Position numbers and translations under genes: made by a program. Under the pieces are notes generated by a model. That model was not told where the DNA came from. It ran no database searches and saw nothing but the letters and a program-made list of their open reading frames with translations. 32,028 bases of DNA, taken from IMG/VR virus record IMGVR_UViG_2534681701_000015. The stretch is one strand, 5' to 3'. Position 1 is the stretch's first letter, and each line of letters opens with the position of its first letter. Positions 1 through 19,216 of the stretch are shown here, in pieces. The DNA is from a virus (lineage: Duplodnaviria; Heunggongvirae; Uroviricota; Caudoviricetes).

Positions 1-1224
1 ATGGCGTTGTCTGATGCGTGGTTGCGTTCAGTCATTGGAAAGGAACGTGATAAGGTTTTGGTTAAATCCGATCGTGATGGTTTGTCTGTCAGAGTATCAC
101 CGAAAGGTCGCGTAGTGTTCCAATATCGTTATCAATGGGCAGGGAAAGGCGAGCGCCTTGATATCGGTACTTACCCGGCAACTGGATTAAAAGAGGCCAG
201 AGAAGAAGTTATCCGTCTTCGTGGTGAACTCGAGTCAAACCGCAATCCACGATTGGTCAAGCAGGTAGAAAAACGCAAAGCTACTGAAGCCATGACGGTG
301 GAGTCTGTGATCCGTGCCTGGTATGCAGCATATTGTGTAAAAAATAAAAAAGGTTCTGAGCAGATACTCCGCTCATTTGAACTGCACCTGTTCTCTAAAA
401 TCGGGAGTATCCCTCACGATGTAGCTACTTTGCATGATTGGTTAGAGGTCCTGGAGCCTCTTAGCACTAAGACTCCAGCAATAGCAGACCGATTGCTAAT
501 TAACGCAAAGCAGGCCCATGTCTGGGCGTATAAGAGAAAGCTCATTGAAACTCGCCCGCTGTCGGATATCACGGGTAAAGATATGGATATCCGTAAAGGT
601 CAGAAGAAACGGTTTCTGACACATGATGAAATTAAAATCCTTTATGCTGCGATCGATGGTTCTCGAATGGTTCCTAAATACCGGGCCTTCATTAAACTAT
701 TGCTGCATTTTGGTTGCCGTAGTTCAGAGCTAATTACTGCCCGGGTGGACGATTTTGATTTCATTAATAAAGTATGGACTGTACCACCAGAACGACATAA
801 GACTGGGGAGATAACAGGCGAACCGCTAAAGCGACCCATTATTGAACCGGTTGAAGAGCTTATAAAGTACGCTATCTCTATGAACAATGGTTCCGATATG
901 CTTTTTACTAAGGAAGGAAGCAGGGAACCCGTTGGTCGGACATCATTGCAGTCGCTGCCTTACAATTTAATGCAGTACGCATGGCGGCGTTTGGGGTATC
1001 AATTCCCTCATTGGTCTCTTCATGATTTGAGACGAACAGCACGAACAAACTTTTCTGATCTTACTGAGCCTCATATTGCAGAAATAATGCTAGGTCATAA
1101 ACTGCCAGGGGTATGGCAAGTTTATGATAAGAGCGATTATCTAGAAGAACAGCGTAAAGCCTACCAGGCATGGTGGGAGAGAGTTAAATCGATTGTTACT
1201 TGTACTAACTCATGCTCCAATTGA
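1..1224 (+). CDS. int: Tyrosine recombinase / phage integrase, P4-type, complete (ATG at window position 1)
   Basis: 407-aa ORF; N-terminus MALSDAWLRS...VRVSPKGRVVFQYRYQ resembles the arm-binding domain of P4/CP4-57 family integrases; C-terminal HDLRRT and downstream Tyr region fit the catalytic domain. Confidence 0.9.
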   Translation: MALSDAWLRSVIGKERDKVLVKSDRDGLSVRVSPKGRVVFQYRYQWAGKGERLDIGTYPATGLKEAREEVIRLRGELESNRNPRLVKQVEKRKATEAMTVESVIRAWYAAYCVKNKKGSEQILRSFELHLFSKIGSIPHDVATLHDWLEVLEPLSTKTPAIADRLLINAKQAHVWAYKRKLIETRPLSDITGKDMDIRKGQKKRFLTHDEIKILYAAIDGSRMVPKYRAFIKLLLHFGCRSSELITARVDDFDFINKVWTVPPERHKTGEITGEPLKRPIIEPVEELIKYAISMNNGSDMLFTKEGSREPVGRTSLQSLPYNLMQYAWRRLGYQFPHWSLHDLRRTARTNFSDLTEPHIAEIMLGHKLPGVWQVYDKSDYLEEQRKAYQAWWERVKSIVTCTNSCSN

Positions 1225-1257
1225 TACAGTATGCCCAGCCAGTATGTAATCAAATTT

Positions 1258-1306
1258 GGCAGCCTGCTTTGAGCGTAAAGCGAGAGCTGCCATTATTCTT
1301 ATATTT
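1258..1306 (+). terminator. Possible intrinsic terminator downstream of int
   Basis: Imperfect hairpin GGCAGC...GCTGCC (1258-1291, with inner GCTTT/AAAGC pairing) followed by T-rich ATTATTCTTATATTT. Confidence 0.3.
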
Positions 1307-1358
1307 GAACGCTATACGATTAACTTTTTGACTGATAGATCAACTGGGTTCAGTATAC

Positions 1359-1379
1359 CACCTGCAATATAAGCAGGTG
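1359..1379. repeat. Perfect 7-bp inverted repeat CACCTGC-N7-GCAGGTG
   Basis: Read directly: 1359-1365 CACCTGC, spacer AATATAA, 1373-1379 GCAGGTG; lies between int and the cargo operon; function unknown. Confidence 0.5.
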
Positions 1380-1395
1380 ATGGATAAATATATCA

Positions 1396-2301
1396 TTATT
1401 GGTCAGGATATTTTGATAGTTCAACTTCAAAAGTTGAATTTTTGTTTTTTAGAACATGATCAACACCTTTATAAAGTTGCCGTAATTTATTTACTGCATT
1501 TATATCAATGGAAGCAGGGGAGAATGCTCGGATAAGATTGTTGAAGATTTCCTTGGAGTAAGCAGATTTCTTCTTTTTATCAAGAGAGTCCATTCTTTTA
1601 ATAATGATTTCTAAAAGATATGTCTTTTGATTGTTATGCATTTTTTCTGAAGTAATAATCAGATACATCATTTCCCCCAAGGTTTTAGAGGCAAAGAACT
1701 CTGGAGATTGCTCTTTCTCTTCTGGTGTCCAGTTATCATAATTGAGGTGTTCTGTTGCTCCTGCCCATATATTACAACGGCTGATTAGCTCATATATTAA
1801 ATAATCAAATCGCATGGGGAACTCTCTATTTACATCTATGCTGCTAGATTTTTCATAACTCTCAAGTATTTCCTTTAGGAAAAAACGATAATACATGAGC
1901 CACATATTGTCTTTTGAGCGTTTGAATATTGCTGTAGATACCATAACATCGAAAAACGTCAATCCAACGAAGATTGGGCATTCCCAACGCTCATCACTAC
2001 TTGAATAGTAATTATCTGGATGATTGTAAAAGCAAGAACTCCCTTTTTGTTTTTTTATGTAGCTAATGACATAATCACCCACAGGTTTCCATATTTCTAA
2101 ATCTATCGCCATGCGAATATCATTTAAATAAAAATTAAGCAAGGTATTACTTTCGTCGAGTGCATACTCCCCTGTATATGAACGATTTTGGTTGTCTCGT
2201 AACTCCCTATACATAATGCTGTTTGGGTTAGATATTAAATACGTAAAGAAATTTGTATTATACTCACAATTATATCTAAGCTGTAAGCAGGTGGCCTTCA
2301 T
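1396..2301 (-). CDS. Hypothetical 301-aa protein, second gene of the AT-rich cargo module; no recognisable motif
   Basis: Uninterrupted 301-aa ORF in a visibly AT-rich segment; no Walker A, HxH or other motif recognised by eye; no clear SD before the ATG at 2301. Confidence 0.6.
   Translation of the reverse strand: MKATCLQLRYNCEYNTNFFTYLISNPNSIMYRELRDNQNRSYTGEYALDESNTLLNFYLNDIRMAIDLEIWKPVGDYVISYIKKQKGSSCFYNHPDNYYSSSDERWECPIFVGLTFFDVMVSTAIFKRSKDNMWLMYYRFFLKEILESYEKSSSIDVNREFPMRFDYLIYELISRCNIWAGATEHLNYDNWTPEEKEQSPEFFASKTLGEMMYLIITSEKMHNNQKTYLLEIIIKRMDSLDKKKKSAYSKEIFNNLIRAFSPASIDINAVNKLRQLYKGVDHVLKNKNSTFEVELSKYPDQ
1420..1450 (+). terminator. Intrinsic-terminator-like hairpin plus T-tract, embedded in the 3' end of the convergent minus-strand CDS
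   Basis: TTCAACT-TCAAA-AGTTGAA stem-loop (1420-1438) followed by TTTTTGTTTTTT (1439-1450) on the plus strand. Confidence 0.4.
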
Positions 2302-2369
2302 AGCTACGTGAGGGTAAGTATCAATTAGATAATGTGAAAAAACCTTTGATTTCAGAAGATTGGATATAT

Positions 2370-2956
2370 TTAATTGAATATCATTTTGTCTTTTGTCTTT
2401 TGTCTTTTGTCTTCATAAGGGAAAAACTTTGACAGAAATCTCCTGACTTTTTTGAATCGTAATTTTTTTACCTTCTCTTCATCCATTTCAATGGGAGATA
2501 ATGAAGGGGCTAAGTAATTATGTACGCGAACATACCATTTTTTATTGCTGATTATATTGAATAGCTGCTCGTGATATTTATCAAAAAGATATCCTAGTTG
2601 TTCTATTTTTTTTGCGCGCAGATATGTTTCTGAAACACTGATCCAACAGGTAAGGTTTGCTTTTGGTAGTATTTTGCCCTGTACTTTAATTCCAAAAAAT
2701 ATAATTATGATACAAAGACAAGTAAAAGCCAATGTATCTTCGTTAAAACCGAGTATCCAAGGGATCGGTTTTATCGGGAAAACACTTAGCAAAACCTTAG
2801 AATATATAACTGTTAATATTGTTGATATAAAAAGATAATGAATGCTAAATTAAATTTAGATATGCGTAACCTTAAATCAACACGTCTCTCATCCGTTAAG
2901 AGAGTATACCAAGCAATAAGTATGGCGAAGACTGCTAGTAAACCATTGGCACCCAT
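2370..2956 (-). CDS. Putative multi-pass membrane protein (about 195 aa if joined), apparently frameshifted at an A5/T5 run
   Basis: ORF 2370-2792 begins at TTG with no in-frame ATG/GTG before the upstream stop at 2850-2852; a 47-aa ORF (ATG 2956, SD GAGGTG, stop 2813-2815) lies in the -1 frame; joining at the A run 2829-2833 gives hydrophobic segments LLAVFAILIAWYTLL, FNLAFIIF..ILTVIY and LAFTCLCIIIIFFGI followed by a basic tail. Confidence 0.45.
2384..2411. repeat. Tandem heptanucleotide repeat (TTTTGTC)x4 inside the 3' end of the membrane-protein gene
   Basis: Four perfect head-to-tail copies at 2384-2411; on the coding strand this is GACAAAA x4, encoding the KRQKTKDK C-terminus. Confidence 0.9.
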
Positions 2957-2996
2957 TATCACCTCTGAATAAGCTACATTTAGACATTCATAAAAA

Positions 2997-3025
2997 ACTT
3001 TAATACTATGTACTTATTGTAACAA
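2997..3025 (-). promoter_or_regulatory. Putative sigma70 promoter for the cargo operon
   Basis: Minus strand reads TTGTTA-N17-TAAAGT (-35 at 3020-3025, -10 at 2997-3002), about 40 nt upstream of the SD/ATG at 2956. Confidence 0.25.
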
Positions 3026-3188
3026 ATTCTGGGTGTTTTCATCAGAATTATCTGCATCATCCTGCACCATTAATTTTGGTGCTTCGCTGGTGGTATTTGC
3101 AACATCTACTTCAGGCACAGAGTAGACAGTCTGATTAGGTTTAGCTCTGTGCCATAGATGTGTTAGCTCACATCTGAACGAATACGTA

Positions 3189-3383
3189 TTACTCAATAAC
3201 TCCCGCAAACCTGTATATCTTGCGTGATGCCCATTTATTTGGGCAGGATTTAATATCAGGATCTGGGAAGTCAGGCCTGTATTTCTGGCCAGTTCTCCTG
3301 TTTACGCTGTTCCAGCGAAGAACTGTCGATACTGAAACGCCACAGAAATCAGCGACTTGTTTAGTTGTCATTAAGTTGTTCAT
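3189..3383 (-). CDS. Small HTH DNA-binding protein, excisionase/AlpA-like
   Basis: 64 aa; MTTKQVADFCGVSVSTVLRW is a helix-turn-helix typical of Xis/AlpA-type regulators; start overlaps the stop of the upstream gene (TAATG). Confidence 0.55.
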   Translation of the reverse strand: MNNLMTTKQVADFCGVSVSTVLRWNSVNRRTGQKYRPDFPDPDIKSCPNKWASRKIYRFAGVIE

Positions 3384-4003
3384 TACTTCACCTCCTGCGG
3401 CGGCTCCGGTAGCGGCATCCAGTGGGTTACTTTCGATGCCGGTTCTTCCCCATTGTCAGTAACTGCCCACCATTTGTTTCTCGAACAATCGTAATACCCT
3501 TCGAAGGTATCGCACTCAGTCCAGCCGTAAGACTTACCCCAACACCAAACATACTGTTTATCGTTCGGCATTCGCTCACTACAGCTTATCCAACCATCCG
3601 GAGTTACCGGAGAGTTGCCCGACAGCTTGTTCAACTTATAAGTCTGGCTTACAGGTTTGGCACCATGAAGCATGGTGGCGCGGCAGGCGTTCCAGCCTTC
3701 ATCAAAACCGACTATGCCATTATTTAAAGACGGACGAGCATCTGGCACCACCAGTACTGGCTTGGCTATATATAGCGGCTGAACATACCAGCCCTTTGAT
3801 AACCAACTGTCAGCAATGTTTTTGCTCCTGGTTATTGCCGGAATACCTAAGCCATTGTCTGAATGCAGCCATGCCACCGGCTCCTCTTCCAGCGATGCCA
3901 GAGCAATTTCATAAGCACGGCGCTCAATATCGTCTCGAATCTCTAGGCTGCTGATTCGTTCTTTGATTTCTTTAATCAGTTCTTTATTGGTAAATGTGGT
4001 CAT
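3383..4003 (-). CDS. DUF551-family phage protein
   Basis: 206 aa; C-terminal THWMPLPEPP is characteristic of DUF551; translationally coupled to its neighbours. Confidence 0.65.
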   Translation of the reverse strand: MTTFTNKELIKEIKERISSLEIRDDIERRAYEIALASLEEEPVAWLHSDNGLGIPAITRSKNIADSWLSKGWYVQPLYIAKPVLVVPDARPSLNNGIVGFDEGWNACRATMLHGAKPVSQTYKLNKLSGNSPVTPDGWISCSERMPNDKQYVWCWGKSYGWTECDTFEGYYDCSRNKWWAVTDNGEEPASKVTHWMPLPEPPQEVK

Positions 4004-4968: not shown

Positions 4969-7414
<2,446 letters not shown>

Positions 7415-17725: not shown

Positions 17726-17742
17726 TTTTGTGGAGAAAGTTG

Positions 17743-18108
17743 ATGCGTGATATTCAAATGGTTCTTGAACGTTGGGGGGCATGGGTGGCAAATAATCACG
17801 AGGATGTCACCTGGTCGTCTATTGCTGCAGGATTTAAAGGACTAATCCCTTCAAAAGTAAAATCCCGCCCGCAATGTTGTGACGATGACGCGATGATCAT
17901 TTGTGGGTGCATGGCTCGCCTGAAAAAGAACAACAGCGATTTGCACGATTTATTAGTGGATTATTATGTAGGTGGTATGACGTTTATGGCGCTTGCCCGT
18001 AAACATGGGCGTTCTGATTGCTGGGTTGGGCGTTTATTGCAAAAGGCTGAAGGTGTAGTTGATGGCATGTTAATGATGTTAGAAATTGAGCTAGAGATGG
18101 ATCGTTAG
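17743..18108 (+). CDS. Q: Late-gene antiterminator Q
   Basis: ATG 17743 with SD GGAGA; [25 protein letters not shown]... with a Cys cluster; last gene before the lysis region. Confidence 0.8.
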
Positions 18109-18191: not shown

Positions 18192-18638
18192 TTAAGGTTT
18201 TAATTCATCAAGACGTTGTTGGATAGTGTTTTTGCTTGCGTTGTCTGTTATAGCCATTTGTTGTACTTGCCCCATTGCCATTTGAGTTTCCATCCACATA
18301 TCGGCCCACACTTTTGTATCGTTATTAACTTGAGCGATAGTAAATCTGACTTTTGATACCGGGGTTGTTGAATAGGCATTTCCGATTAACATTTGTCCAA
18401 AAACAGCAGAGCCGCCTTCCAGTTCTTTACCACATATAACACTGCTGTTATCCGCGTTGTAAATTATCAACCCTCTACTATTGCAGTAATTCACAAGGGC
18501 ATCTTTGACTTTATCTTTTGTCGTATTTTGATAAACCCCCTCAGGTTTTCCTGATTGAGTTTTCTTTATCAATGGTACGGAAGAAGTACAACCTGAAATG
18601 ATAGTTGCGCTAAGTAATAGTACAGTCATTTTATTCAT
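18192..18638 (-). CDS. Lipoprotein moron (148 aa) encoded antisense between Q and the tRNA cluster
   Basis: Signal peptide plus lipobox MNKMTVLLLSATIISGC; visibly AT-rich; hairpin GGGGAG..CTCCCC at 18151-18172 just beyond its stop. Confidence 0.7.
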   Translation of the reverse strand: MNKMTVLLLSATIISGCTSSVPLIKKTQSGKPEGVYQNTTKDKVKDALVNYCNSRGLIIYNADNSSVICGKELEGGSAVFGQMLIGNAYSTTPVSKVRFTIAQVNNDTKVWADMWMETQMAMGQVQQMAITDNASKNTIQQRLDELKP

Positions 18639-18906: not shown

Positions 18907-18982
18907 GGCCCTTTAGCTCAGTGGTGAGAGCGAGCGACTCATAATCGCCAGGTCGCTGGTTCAAATCCAGCAAGGGCCACCA
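18907..18982 (+). tRNA. tRNA with CAU anticodon (ileX/ileZ-like tRNA-Ile2 or Met)
   Basis: Cloverleaf folded by hand: acceptor GGCCCTT/AAGGGCC, D-arm GCTCAGTGGTGAGAGC, anticodon loop CTCATAA, T-loop TTCAAAT, 3' ACCA. Confidence 0.8.
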
Positions 18983-18983
18983 A

Positions 18984-19060
18984 CTGCCACTAGCTCATCA
19001 GGAAAGAGCGTCAACCCTTTAAGTTGAGAGTGCGAGGTTCGAGTCCCCGGTGGCGGTCCA
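18984..19060 (+). tRNA. tRNA-like gene, identity uncertain (anticodon loop CCTTTAA; UUU/Lys if canonical, but C at position 33)
   Basis: Acceptor CTGCCAC/GTGGCGG (one G-U), D-arm GCTC..GAGC, anticodon stem TCAAC/GTTGA, T-arm CGAGG-TTCGAGT-CCCCG (one mismatch), 3' TCCA. Confidence 0.5.
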
Positions 19061-19062
19061 GT

Positions 19063-19138
<76 letters not shown>

Positions 19139-19141
19139 TGT

Positions 19142-19216
<75 letters not shown>

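What the first reader, a model, noticed from the sequence alone, without database searches (positions are those of the whole stretch)
1396..2956. Integrase-adjacent AT-rich two-gene module: multi-TM membrane protein plus 301-aa partner, candidate anti-phage system
Between int and the early-left operon sits a minus-strand pair that is visibly AT-rich relative to the rest of the prophage. It encodes a ~195-aa protein with 3-4 N-terminal transmembrane helices and a basic tail (after correcting a frame break), followed by a 301-aa soluble protein with no motif I can recognise. It has its own candidate promoter, and a terminator-like element lies at its 3' end. Position and architecture recall two-gene membrane-sensor/effector defence systems (Kiwa KwaA/KwaB-like sizes, or Rex-like), but I cannot assign a family from sequence alone, so it may be an undescribed module.
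Basis: partly seen in the sequence, partly recalled or inferred. Interest (0 to 1): 0.8.

Follow-up and report, generated by a model that had tools for sequence, protein, structure and literature searches.

The report
Frameshifted single prophage gene, not pair
The supposed two-gene anti-phage module is one 515-codon prophage gene broken by two slippage frameshifts; intact relatives form a widespread uncharacterised family of membrane-anchored proteins that sit in phage-defence hotspots, but this copy is dead.

Summary
The AT-rich minus-strand segment between int and the early-left genes is real: 32.9% GC against 49.6% for the window, the lowest in the window. It is one gene, not two. The closest E. 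coli relative carries a single 515-aa ORF. The window differs by a 1-nt deletion in a T6 run (2829-2833) and by two extra copies of a GACAAAA heptamer (2384-2411). Repairing both indels restores a 515-aa ORF whose protein is identical to WP_001406835.1. The "195-aa membrane protein" and the "301-aa partner" are the N- and C-terminal parts of one protein.

The family is large: 931 clusters at 50% identity, nearly all 500-600 aa. It has no Pfam, PADLOC, NCBIfam or PDB relative. The AlphaFold model is confident (pLDDT 87.7) and shows three N-terminal membrane helices plus an alpha-solenoid with only generic structural matches.

Members are stand-alone cargo in mobile-element hotspots: lambdoid int-xis, the P2 S-V site, downstream of the P4 primase, type I RM islands and conjugative elements. 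Recognised defence genes are often adjacent. DefensePredictor lists this gene's truncated O103 product as a predicted, untested defence gene (log-odds 8.35).

Kiwa and Rex readings are rejected. An anti-phage role for intact copies is plausible (about 0.55). The window copy is a recent pseudogene. Frameshifts recur at four slip-prone tracts across E. coli.

The parts
1396..2956 (-). Whole pseudogene. It is a single gene for a 515-aa membrane-anchored alpha-helical protein (orthologue of WP_001406835.1, PHROG 13820), interrupted by two frameshifts.
   Evidence: A single 1548-nt ORF is present in E. coli 510016 and in 12 Stx2c phages. Repairing the two indels gives a 515-aa ORF 100% identical in protein. 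Full-length ~515-aa homologues are found across Gammaproteobacteria. PHROG 13820 matches at E 2e-41 over residues 4-460.
2960..2965 (-). Shine-Dalgarno sequence (GAGGTG) 3 nt upstream of the true ATG at 2956.
   Evidence: Read directly from the sequence. No comparable motif precedes the internal ATG at 2301.
2813..2956 (-). N-terminal fragment: native residues 1-42 (TM1 and the start of TM2), then 5 out-of-frame codons (LYQQY) and a stop.
2829..2833 (-). Frameshift 1: a T5 run on the coding strand where the intact allele has T6 (codons F42-F43).
   Evidence: Alignment to L001/L002. The same T5 allele occurs in E. coli SMN013SH2 and 2014C-3011 and in L017-L019.
2370..2792 (-). Middle fragment, the listed 140-aa ORF with a TTG start. 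It covers native residues 56-187 (end of TM2, TM3, first cytoplasmic helices), then KTKDKMIFN and a stop created by the heptamer expansion.
2384..2411 (-). Frameshift 2: a (GACAAAA)x4 tandem heptamer array where the intact allele has x2 (+14 nt).
   Evidence: TRF reports period 7, 4.3 copies, 100% matches. Copy number is 2, 3 or 4 among strains. The 3-copy allele on a T6 background gives the 189-aa product P0205.
1396..2301 (-). C-terminal fragment, the '301-aa partner'. It covers native residues 215-515, the most conserved part of the cytoplasmic alpha-solenoid (motifs YRELRDNQN, ERWxCPIFVG, HMWLMYY, REFPxRFDYLIY, VDHVLK).
1359..1379 (.). A 7-bp GC-rich inverted repeat (CACCTGC / GCAGGTG, 7-nt loop) between the convergent int and pseudogene 3' ends. 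There is no T-run, so it is at best a weak terminator.
1..1224 (+). Tyrosine integrase (407 aa), convergent with the pseudogene. The int-plus-cargo cassette is shared with Stx1a/Stx2c prophages integrated next to yjjG.
3189..3383 (-). AlpA/Xis-like small HTH ORF upstream of the pseudogene on the same strand. It marks the start of the early-left genes (DUF551 and others).
   Evidence: Translation, read by eye. It was not scanned against a family library here. The DUF551 neighbour is annotated.

Best explanation
Window 1396-2956 (-) is a recently inactivated copy of ONE accessory (moron) gene, not a two-gene system.

The intact gene encodes a 515-aa protein. It has three N-terminal transmembrane helices and a ~420-residue all-alpha, solenoid-like domain. 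The inferred topology is N-terminus out and C-domain in the cytoplasm.

In this window two replication-slippage events destroy the frame. A T6 run has become T5 at codon 42-43, and a GACAAAA heptamer has expanded from 2 to 4 copies at codon ~187. The result is three ORF fragments of 47, 140 and 301 codons.

The protein belongs to a large, uncharacterised, single-chain family of Gammaproteobacteria. The family travels as stand-alone cargo in variable slots of mobile elements. These are lambdoid int-xis, the P2 S-V 'orf30' site, P4 between primase and att, type I RM islands, ICEs and small integrative elements.

Most likely function of intact copies (inferred, about 0.55): a single-protein anti-phage function. 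The membrane-anchored cytoplasmic solenoid would recognise a phage component at the inner membrane. A conserved polar cluster is its candidate binding or active site (E247, N307, H346, E374, D495, P0002 numbering). Infection would then be blocked either by membrane damage through the TM segment (abortive infection) or by interference with genome entry (superinfection exclusion).

The window copy cannot perform this function.
For: Shown:
- One 515-aa ORF is present in the closest relative and in 12 Stx2c phages.
- Only two indels separate the window from it. Repairing them gives an identical protein.
- Full-length ~510-545-aa homologues occur at 39-84% identity. The profile search finds 931 clusters at 50% identity with E<=1e-3, nearly all 500-600 aa with end-to-end matches.
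- A strong Shine-Dalgarno sequence is present only at the 2956 start.
- There are three TM-like segments with a positive-inside charge pattern. The N-terminal anchor is conserved: 55 of 58 diverse members have 2-3 peaks.
- The AF2 model has pLDDT 87.7 and pTM 0.82 and is all-alpha.
- No partner gene is conserved across 13 contexts.

Context:
- P4-like satellite, after the primase and next to a retron RT plus TIR gene, with HEPN in the int-psu hotspot.
- P2-like phage, between S and V.
- Type I RM islands in Vibrio (two species) and Spongiibacter.
- Type IV restriction-like HNH neighbours in Pseudomonas and in IMG/VR locus L035, and PDC-S71 in Yersinia.
- A TIR protein in Morganella.
- ICE cargo in Sodalis and Pantoea.

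Literature:
- Minor defence hotspots exist between the P4 primase and att and within the P2 late genes.
- DefensePredictor Table S10 lists WP_015740443.1, the truncated O103 product of this gene, at mean log-odds 8.35 against a strict cutoff of 4, as 'Predicted novel defense gene'.
Against: - No experiment bears on function. The DefensePredictor entry is a prediction, and only 45% of that study's cloned predictions validated. The model also uses genomic context, so it is not fully independent of my context argument.
- Topology and mechanism are inferred, not shown.
- About half of the E. coli copies are frameshifted. That fits a dispensable or costly gene but does not show what it does.
- No convincing promoter was found, so it is unknown when intact copies are expressed.
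- Some contexts have no recognisable defence neighbour (P. protegens; the tail-fibre region of L032).
Confidence: 0.8

Rival explanations
1. One reading: a functional two-gene membrane-sensor/effector defence module (Kiwa KwaA/KwaB-like or Rex-like), with a ~195-aa multi-TM protein and a 301-aa soluble partner.
For: The sizes of the two fragments resemble KwaA/KwaB, and the N-terminal part is membrane-embedded. The locus lies in a typical moron position next to int.
Against: The boundary between the 'genes' is a +14-nt heptamer expansion absent from all 35 complete E. coli genomes that carry the gene. Every intact relative, down to 20% identity, is a single ~515-aa chain. No Pfam hit (including DUF4868) and no PADLOC hit was found for the protein or for 100 family members. 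The predicted fold is all-alpha. There is no Shine-Dalgarno sequence before the 301-aa ORF. The membrane part is itself frameshifted at codon 42.
Confidence: 0.03
2. Phase-variable (contingency) gene. The T-run, the A-runs and the heptamer array would be reversible ON/OFF switches, and the window shows an OFF state of a still-usable gene.
For: All five kinds of frameshift seen lie in simple repeats: T6/T5, A8/A9, A6/A7, and heptamer x2/x3/x4. Heptamer expansion arose on at least two backgrounds, T6 O103-like (P0205) and T5 (L019, window). Repaired, the window protein has no substitutions, so the breaks are recent.
Against: The tracts are short for true contingency loci. The window needs two independent reversions to come back ON. 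Alleles are fixed across whole lineages, for example 12 Stx1a phages and 35 contigs with the 460-aa product. The pattern fits ordinary slippage-driven decay of an AT-rich gene under relaxed or negative selection.
Confidence: 0.07
3. The family is mobile-element cargo with a non-defence role, for example envelope or surface modification, a host-fitness factor, an element-maintenance or addiction function, or an anti-defence function.
For: No defence domain or homology was found. Prophage int-proximal AT-rich genes include O-antigen modification genes (background knowledge). Several contexts are conjugative elements that also carry an anti-restriction gene, ArdC in Sodalis. More than half of machine-learning defence predictions fail validation.
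Against: There are only 3 TM segments and a large cytoplasmic domain, with no gtrA/gtrB or glycosyltransferase neighbours or Pfam hits. The gene recurs immediately next to RM, type IV restriction, retron-TIR and PDC-S71 genes and in documented P2/P4 defence slots. DefensePredictor log-odds is 8.35.
Confidence: 0.3
4. The frame breaks are assembly or sequencing errors, and the window really encodes the intact 515-aa protein.
For: Homopolymer and short-repeat lengths are common error sites.
Against: Exactly the same allele (T5 plus 4 heptamers) is present in independent assemblies: Logan ERR4899670 and NCBI GCA_000357545.2. The 301-aa product is on record from 21 contigs. A 14-nt insertion is not a typical base-calling error. 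An intermediate allele (T5 plus 3 copies) also exists (L019).
Confidence: 0.02

Closest known systems
PHROG 13820 (phage orthologous group, unknown function) / RefSeq WP_001406835.1 'hypothetical protein'
   Same: Direct membership. The match is E 2e-41 over residues 4-460 of the protein. The repaired window protein is identical to WP_001406835.1.
   Different: The window copy is frameshifted twice. Neither record carries any functional annotation.
DefensePredictor 'uncharacterized_clusters' entry WP_015740443.1 / cluster WP_047661322.1 (Science 2026, PMC13092281, Table S10)
   Same: It is the same gene. WP_015740443.1 is the 436-aa product annotated in O103:H2 12009. It is scored as a predicted novel defence gene with mean log-odds 8.35 and no HHblits or Foldseek link to known defence.
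   Different: This is only a prediction. The accessions I searched occur only in the prediction table, not in the tables of cloned or validated units. The scored protein is itself a C-terminally truncated frameshift allele.
Kiwa (KwaA 4-TM protein + KwaB DUF4868)
   Same: Both have a membrane-embedded N-terminal part and a larger cytoplasmic part, and both occur in mobile-element defence hotspots. Both could plausibly sense events at the inner membrane.
   Different: This is one polypeptide, not two genes. It has 3 TM segments, not 4. There is no DUF4868 and no KwaA/KwaB HMM match. The fold is an all-alpha solenoid.
Lambda RexA/RexB and other membrane-acting abortive-infection or exclusion genes of prophages (P22 SieA and similar; comparison from background knowledge)
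   Same: It is a prophage-borne, AT-rich accessory gene with a membrane component that is non-essential for the phage. The proposed mode of action is the same: membrane-level abortive infection or exclusion.
   Different: No sequence or profile similarity to any PADLOC model. It is a single 515-aa chain with a large conserved cytoplasmic domain. Its position is int-xis rather than the immunity region.
P2 orf30 / P2-P4 hotspot cargo (Rousset et al. 2022, PMC9122126; bioRxiv 10.64898/2026.02.27.708500)
   Same: Family members occupy the S-V slot of a P2-like phage and the primase-to-att slot of a P4-like satellite. These slots are described as minor defence hotspots.
   Different: P2 itself gave no tblastn match. 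None of the new systems named in the preprint (Crouga, Bandua, Aernus, Toga, Reve, Hailong) has this architecture.

Membership tests
Kiwa (KwaA/KwaB) | Two separate adjacent genes, kwaA and kwaB | tested here: not met
   Intact relatives have one 515-aa ORF. The apparent boundary is a +14-nt repeat expansion.
Kiwa (KwaA/KwaB) | KwaB carries DUF4868; KwaA and KwaB match their HMMs | tested here: not met
   No Pfam hit at E<=1 and no PADLOC hit for the protein. The 100 family members gave only isolated chance-level hits.
Rex / known Abi and other catalogued defence systems (PADLOC-DB v2.0.0) | Significant match to any PADLOC defence-protein model | tested here: not met
   The best E-values (0.007-0.03) come from single members and unrelated models.
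PHROG 13820 | Profile match over most of the protein | tested here: met
   E 2.2e-41, residues 4-460 against profile positions 10-446 of 505.
   -1 nt in the T6 run and +14 nt in the heptamer array. The repaired ORF is 515 aa and identical in protein to WP_001406835.1.
Defence-island / MGE-hotspot cargo (guilt by association) | Recurrent location next to recognised defence genes or in documented defence hotspots, in unrelated elements | tested here: met
   At least 7 of about 14 independent contexts: type I RM x3, type IV REase-like x2, retron-TIR/HEPN in a P4 satellite, TIR, PDC-S71. No formal background control was run.
Experimentally validated anti-phage system | Protection in a phage-challenge assay | not testable with these tools
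   Only a machine-learning prediction exists (log-odds 8.35).
Prophage O-antigen modification (Gtr-type glucosyltransferase / Oac) | Polytopic membrane protein (about 9-11 TM), gtrA-gtrB neighbours or an acyl/glycosyl-transferase domain | tested here: not met
   Three N-terminal TM-like segments, with one further hydrophobic segment (residues 322-340) that is a helix of the soluble domain in the model. No Pfam domain. The neighbours are int and xis-like/DUF551 genes.
Phase-variable contingency locus | Reversible ON/OFF switching through repeat-length change within clonal populations | tested here: inconclusive
   Between-strain length variation occurs at four tracts. The tracts are short and no within-population data are available.

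The most novel reading that the evidence does not exclude
Intact members of this family (931 clusters at 50% identity, with no Pfam, PADLOC or PDB relative) would be a new single-protein anti-phage immunity family. It would consist of a three-helix inner-membrane anchor fused to a novel cytoplasmic alpha-solenoid with a conserved E/N/H/E/D cluster, carried in hotspots of lambdoid, P2-like and P4-like elements and in RM islands. Its repeated slippage inactivation in Shiga-toxin-phage lineages would reflect a fitness cost of the gene or switchable expression.
Probability: 0.5. Interest if true: 0.6.

Novelty: new variant of a known kind. Interest (0 to 1): 0.4.

Why it matters
For this window, the result removes a false lead. 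There is no working two-gene system here, only a freshly broken single gene.

For the field, it gives a sharper target than the published machine-learning entry, which scored a truncated allele. This report supplies:
- the correct full-length gene (515 aa);
- a confident structural model;
- conserved residues to mutate;
- the mobile-element slots the family occupies;
- natural loss-of-function alleles (T5, A9, A7, heptamer x3 and x4) that can serve as built-in negative controls.

If intact alleles protect against phage, this would be a defence family with no recognisable effector domain, carried by Stx-converting prophages of pathogenic E. coli. The frequent inactivation would then bear on the cost of prophage-borne immunity. 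It is one of roughly a thousand such untested candidates in E. coli, so the expected impact is moderate.

Tried and rejected
- Pfam, NCBIfam and PADLOC on the intact protein gave nothing.
- Pfam and PADLOC run member by member on 42 close and 58 distant relatives gave only scattered chance-level hits.
- PDB sequence-profile searches with A1 and A2 gave nothing meaningful; the best was a designed TPR at E 0.006.
- A profile search of the annotated 5.8-billion-protein set for named relatives or domain fusions returned only 'hypothetical' proteins with no fusions.
- The conserved-partner test (all-vs-all BLASTP of neighbours across 13 contexts) found no partner.
- Rfam on 1150-3450 gave nothing; one eiav_FSE hit at E 0.57 was dismissed.
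- The promoter and terminator scans gave no signal above shuffled sequence.
- A genome-contig scan for the heptamer region returned 0 matches.
- Literature searches for the accession numbers and for the Stx phage records found nothing in main texts.
- The new systems of the P2/P4 preprint do not match this architecture.
- The Gtr/Oac-type O-antigen modification reading was considered and rejected on TM count, neighbours and the absence of a domain.
Full report
**1. What is in the sequence**

The interval 1396-2956 is the most AT-rich 1.56 kb of the window. Its GC is 32.9% against 49.6% overall, about 3.3 SD below the mean of sliding windows. It lies between a 407-aa tyrosine integrase (1-1224, + strand) and, on the minus strand, an AlpA/Xis-like ORF followed by DUF551, a 120-aa ORF and a YfdR-like gene.

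On the minus strand the ORF list shows three pieces: 2813-2962 (49 aa), 2370-2792 (140 aa, TTG start) and 1396-2301 (301 aa).

**2. It is one gene with two frameshifts**

Megablast against 5,426 complete E. coli genomes finds the segment in 35 of them, always beside the same integrase and downstream of holD-rimI-yjjG. In the closest one, strain 510016, the whole segment is annotated as a single 515-aa hypothetical protein, WP_001406835.1.

Base-by-base alignment shows that the window differs from that allele in the coding region in three ways:
- one T is missing from a T6 run (window 2829-2833, codons 42-43);
- there are 14 extra bases, which are two extra copies of a perfect GACAAAA heptamer (window 2384-2411, four copies instead of two);
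- there is one synonymous base change.

Adding the T back and removing two heptamers gives a 1548-nt ORF whose 515-aa product is identical to WP_001406835.1. The true start at 2956 is preceded by GAGGTGA. The ATG of the '301-aa protein' is internal Met215 and has no ribosome-binding motif.

The breaks are not sequencing errors. The identical allele is present in independent assemblies (Logan ERR4899670; NCBI GCA_000357545.2, which also has the neighbouring IS21-family IstB). The 301-aa product is on record from 21 contigs of E. coli.

**3. The gene breaks often, always at slip-prone tracts**

Among the 35 complete genomes, the match length is 1588 nt in 19 (as in the intact allele), 1589 nt in 11 and 1587 nt in 5. 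I inspected only one intact-length copy, strain 510016. The five odd-length copies that I read each carry a 1-nt indel in a homopolymer:

| Change | Window position | Strains |
|---|---|---|
| T6 to T5 | ~2834 | SMN013SH2, 2014C-3011 |
| A8 to A9 | ~2614 | 1436, O45:H2 FWSEC0003 |
| A6 to A7 | ~1647 | O103:H2 12009 |

The gene is intact in 12 Stx2c-converting phages and split in 12 Stx1a-converting phages.

The heptamer array has 2, 3 or 4 copies. Three copies occur on a T5 background (L019). Three copies also occur on an otherwise intact O103-like background, giving the 189-aa product P0205 that ends EDKRQKTK. Expansion therefore arose at least twice.

The 90%-identity protein cluster holds products of 515, 460, 436, 332, 301 and ~190 aa. 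I read this as recurrent slippage-driven decay of an AT-rich gene that is dispensable or costly in these hosts. True phase variation cannot be excluded but is unlikely for this copy, which would need two reversions.

**4. The family**

A word-indexed search found 54 relatives. Nearly all are full-length proteins of 509-559 aa from Citrobacter (84%), Yersinia, Sodalis, Leclercia, Morganella, Pantoea, Enterobacter, Pseudomonas (45%), Vibrio, Shewanella, Pseudoalteromonas (~40%) and Spongiibacter. All are annotated as hypothetical and none has a Pfam domain.

An exhaustive profile search of 1.84 billion cluster representatives found 931 proteins at E<=1e-3 and 490 at E<=1e-30. Nearly all are 500-600 aa and match end to end. 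A second profile search of the annotated set found no named relative and no domain fusion.

The only library hit is PHROG 13820, of unknown function. The following all found nothing:
- Pfam, NCBIfam and PADLOC on the protein and, member by member, on 100 relatives;
- PDB sequence profiles.

Across 58 diverse members E247, F331 and M334 are invariant. S242, A279, G289, N307, H346, W348, L349, Y351, E374, P376, W393 and D495 are >=90% conserved (P0002 numbering).

**5. Structure**

AlphaFold2 on the Citrobacter orthologue with 42 aligned sequences gives pLDDT 87.7 and pTM 0.82. The model is entirely helical.

Hydropathy gives three TM-like segments at residues 2-20, 39-57 and 76-94. Basic residues are concentrated in loop 1 and after TM3, which by the positive-inside rule puts the large domain in the cytoplasm (inference). 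Fifty-five of 58 diverse members keep two or three N-terminal hydrophobic peaks.

**6. Genomic context of relatives**

The gene always stands alone. An all-vs-all comparison of neighbours in 13 contexts finds no conserved partner. It sits in variable cargo slots of many kinds of mobile element:

| Context | Location and neighbours |
|---|---|
| Lambdoid / Stx prophages | between int and the xis-like ORF |
| Enterobacter P4-like satellite | directly after the alpha primase and before a retron-type RT plus a TIR protein; a HEPN gene sits in the int-psu hotspot |
| P2-like phage | between S/R and V, the position of P2 orf30 |
| Two Vibrio species | type I RM, then a small recombinase, then the gene |
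| Spongiibacter | 9 bp after hsdR of a type I RM that also carries a Schlafen-like ATPase |
| Pseudomonas | next to a type IV restriction-like HNH protein (PADLOC E 5e-24) |
| IMG/VR contig L035 | next to two further type IV restriction-like HNH proteins |
| Yersinia aldovae | integrase, PDC-S71 (E 5e-206), helicase, HNH, then the gene |
| Morganella | island with a TIR protein |
| Sodalis and Pantoea | conjugative elements |
| Metagenome contigs (relative at 26% identity) | small int/Prim-Pol element |

[quoted passage not shown] None of its newly named systems resembles this protein.

**7. Independent prediction**

The DefensePredictor paper (Science 2026, PMC13092281) lists WP_015740443.1 in Table S10, 'uncharacterized_clusters'. 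This is the 436-aa truncated product of this gene in the O103:H2 lineage. Its mean log-odds is 8.35, with a range of 7.50-9.44, against a strict cutoff of 4. It is labelled 'Predicted novel defense gene' and has no HHblits or Foldseek link to known defence.

The accessions appear only in that prediction table, so as far as the held files show the gene was not cloned. The study's overall validation rate for cloned predictions was 45%.

**8. Interpretation**

Shown: one gene; two slippage frameshifts; a recent pseudogene; a large conserved single-chain family; a membrane anchor plus an alpha-solenoid; stand-alone cargo of mobile-element hotspots, frequently beside defence genes.

Inferred: N-out/C-in topology; an anti-phage role of intact copies (about 0.55); action at the inner membrane, either abortive infection through the TM segment or exclusion of incoming DNA. 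The conserved polar cluster would be the binding or active site.

The Kiwa, Rex and Abi assignments fail every feature I could test. An O-antigen-modification role is unsupported: there are three N-terminal TM segments, no transferase domain and no gtrAB neighbours.

**9. Verdict**

The two-gene architecture, the promoter and the terminator are not supported.

It is wrong in architecture, and the window copy is non-functional.

Interest is moderate. This is a well-defined but untested candidate family among many, with useful natural null alleles.

Noticed in passing
window 5161-6962 (-): An IS21-family element sits inside the early-left region of the prophage. It comprises an IstA-like 340-aa ORF at 5940-6962 and an IstB-like 260-aa ORF with a Walker A motif at 5161-5943. 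The same IstB neighbour is present in GCA_000357545.2 (L018, PF01695). E. coli 510016 has an IS2 a little further on instead.
   Followed up: partly
window 18907-19216 (+): Four tRNA genes (Met-CAT, Lys-TTT, Thr-TGT, Gly-TCC) lie in a tight cluster downstream of the Q-like antiterminator (17728-18108) and upstream of the holin and lysozyme genes. This is where Stx phages carry stx. No stx ORF is present in this prophage.
   Followed up: no
window 18192-18638 (-): A 148-aa ORF with a lipoprotein-type signal peptide (…LLSATIISGC…) lies on the opposite strand between Q and the tRNA cluster. It is another probable moron.
   Followed up: no
L005:7360-7956, L013:7284-7880, L006:10658-11260: A ~200-aa Phage_integrase-family (FimB/E-sized) recombinase lies next to family members in two Vibrio species and in Morganella. 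It is 54% identical between genera at 98% coverage. It is the only neighbour shared between otherwise unrelated contexts. It could be part of a small mobile cassette or an invertible switch.
   Followed up: partly
L022/L023 (Enterobacter metagenome scaffolds): A P4-like satellite carries three cargo loci at once. A HEPN_LA2681 protein sits in the int-psu hotspot. The family member comes after the primase. A retron-type RT plus a CAP12/PCTIR TIR protein follows before the host genes.
   Followed up: partly
L027:2071-3852 (Yersinia aldovae ATCC 35236): A full-length match to the PADLOC candidate PDC-S71 (E 5e-206) lies in the same island, followed by a DEAD/ResIII helicase and an HNH_2 protein, upstream of the family member.
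   Followed up: no
window 2359-2386: TRF also reports an imperfect 14-15-nt near-duplication (1.9 copies, 85% match) immediately 3' of the heptamer array on the coding strand. It spans the premature stop of the middle fragment. It may contribute to local slippage.
   Followed up: no
window 1-3632 versus 3632-25000: The int-plus-pseudogene cassette (1 to about 3632) is shared with Stx1a/Stx2c phages. The rest of the prophage is closest (97.5%) to the non-Stx phages PhiR55_1 and PhiR40_1, which lack this cassette. The prophage is therefore mosaic, with a junction just upstream of the pseudogene.
   Followed up: partly
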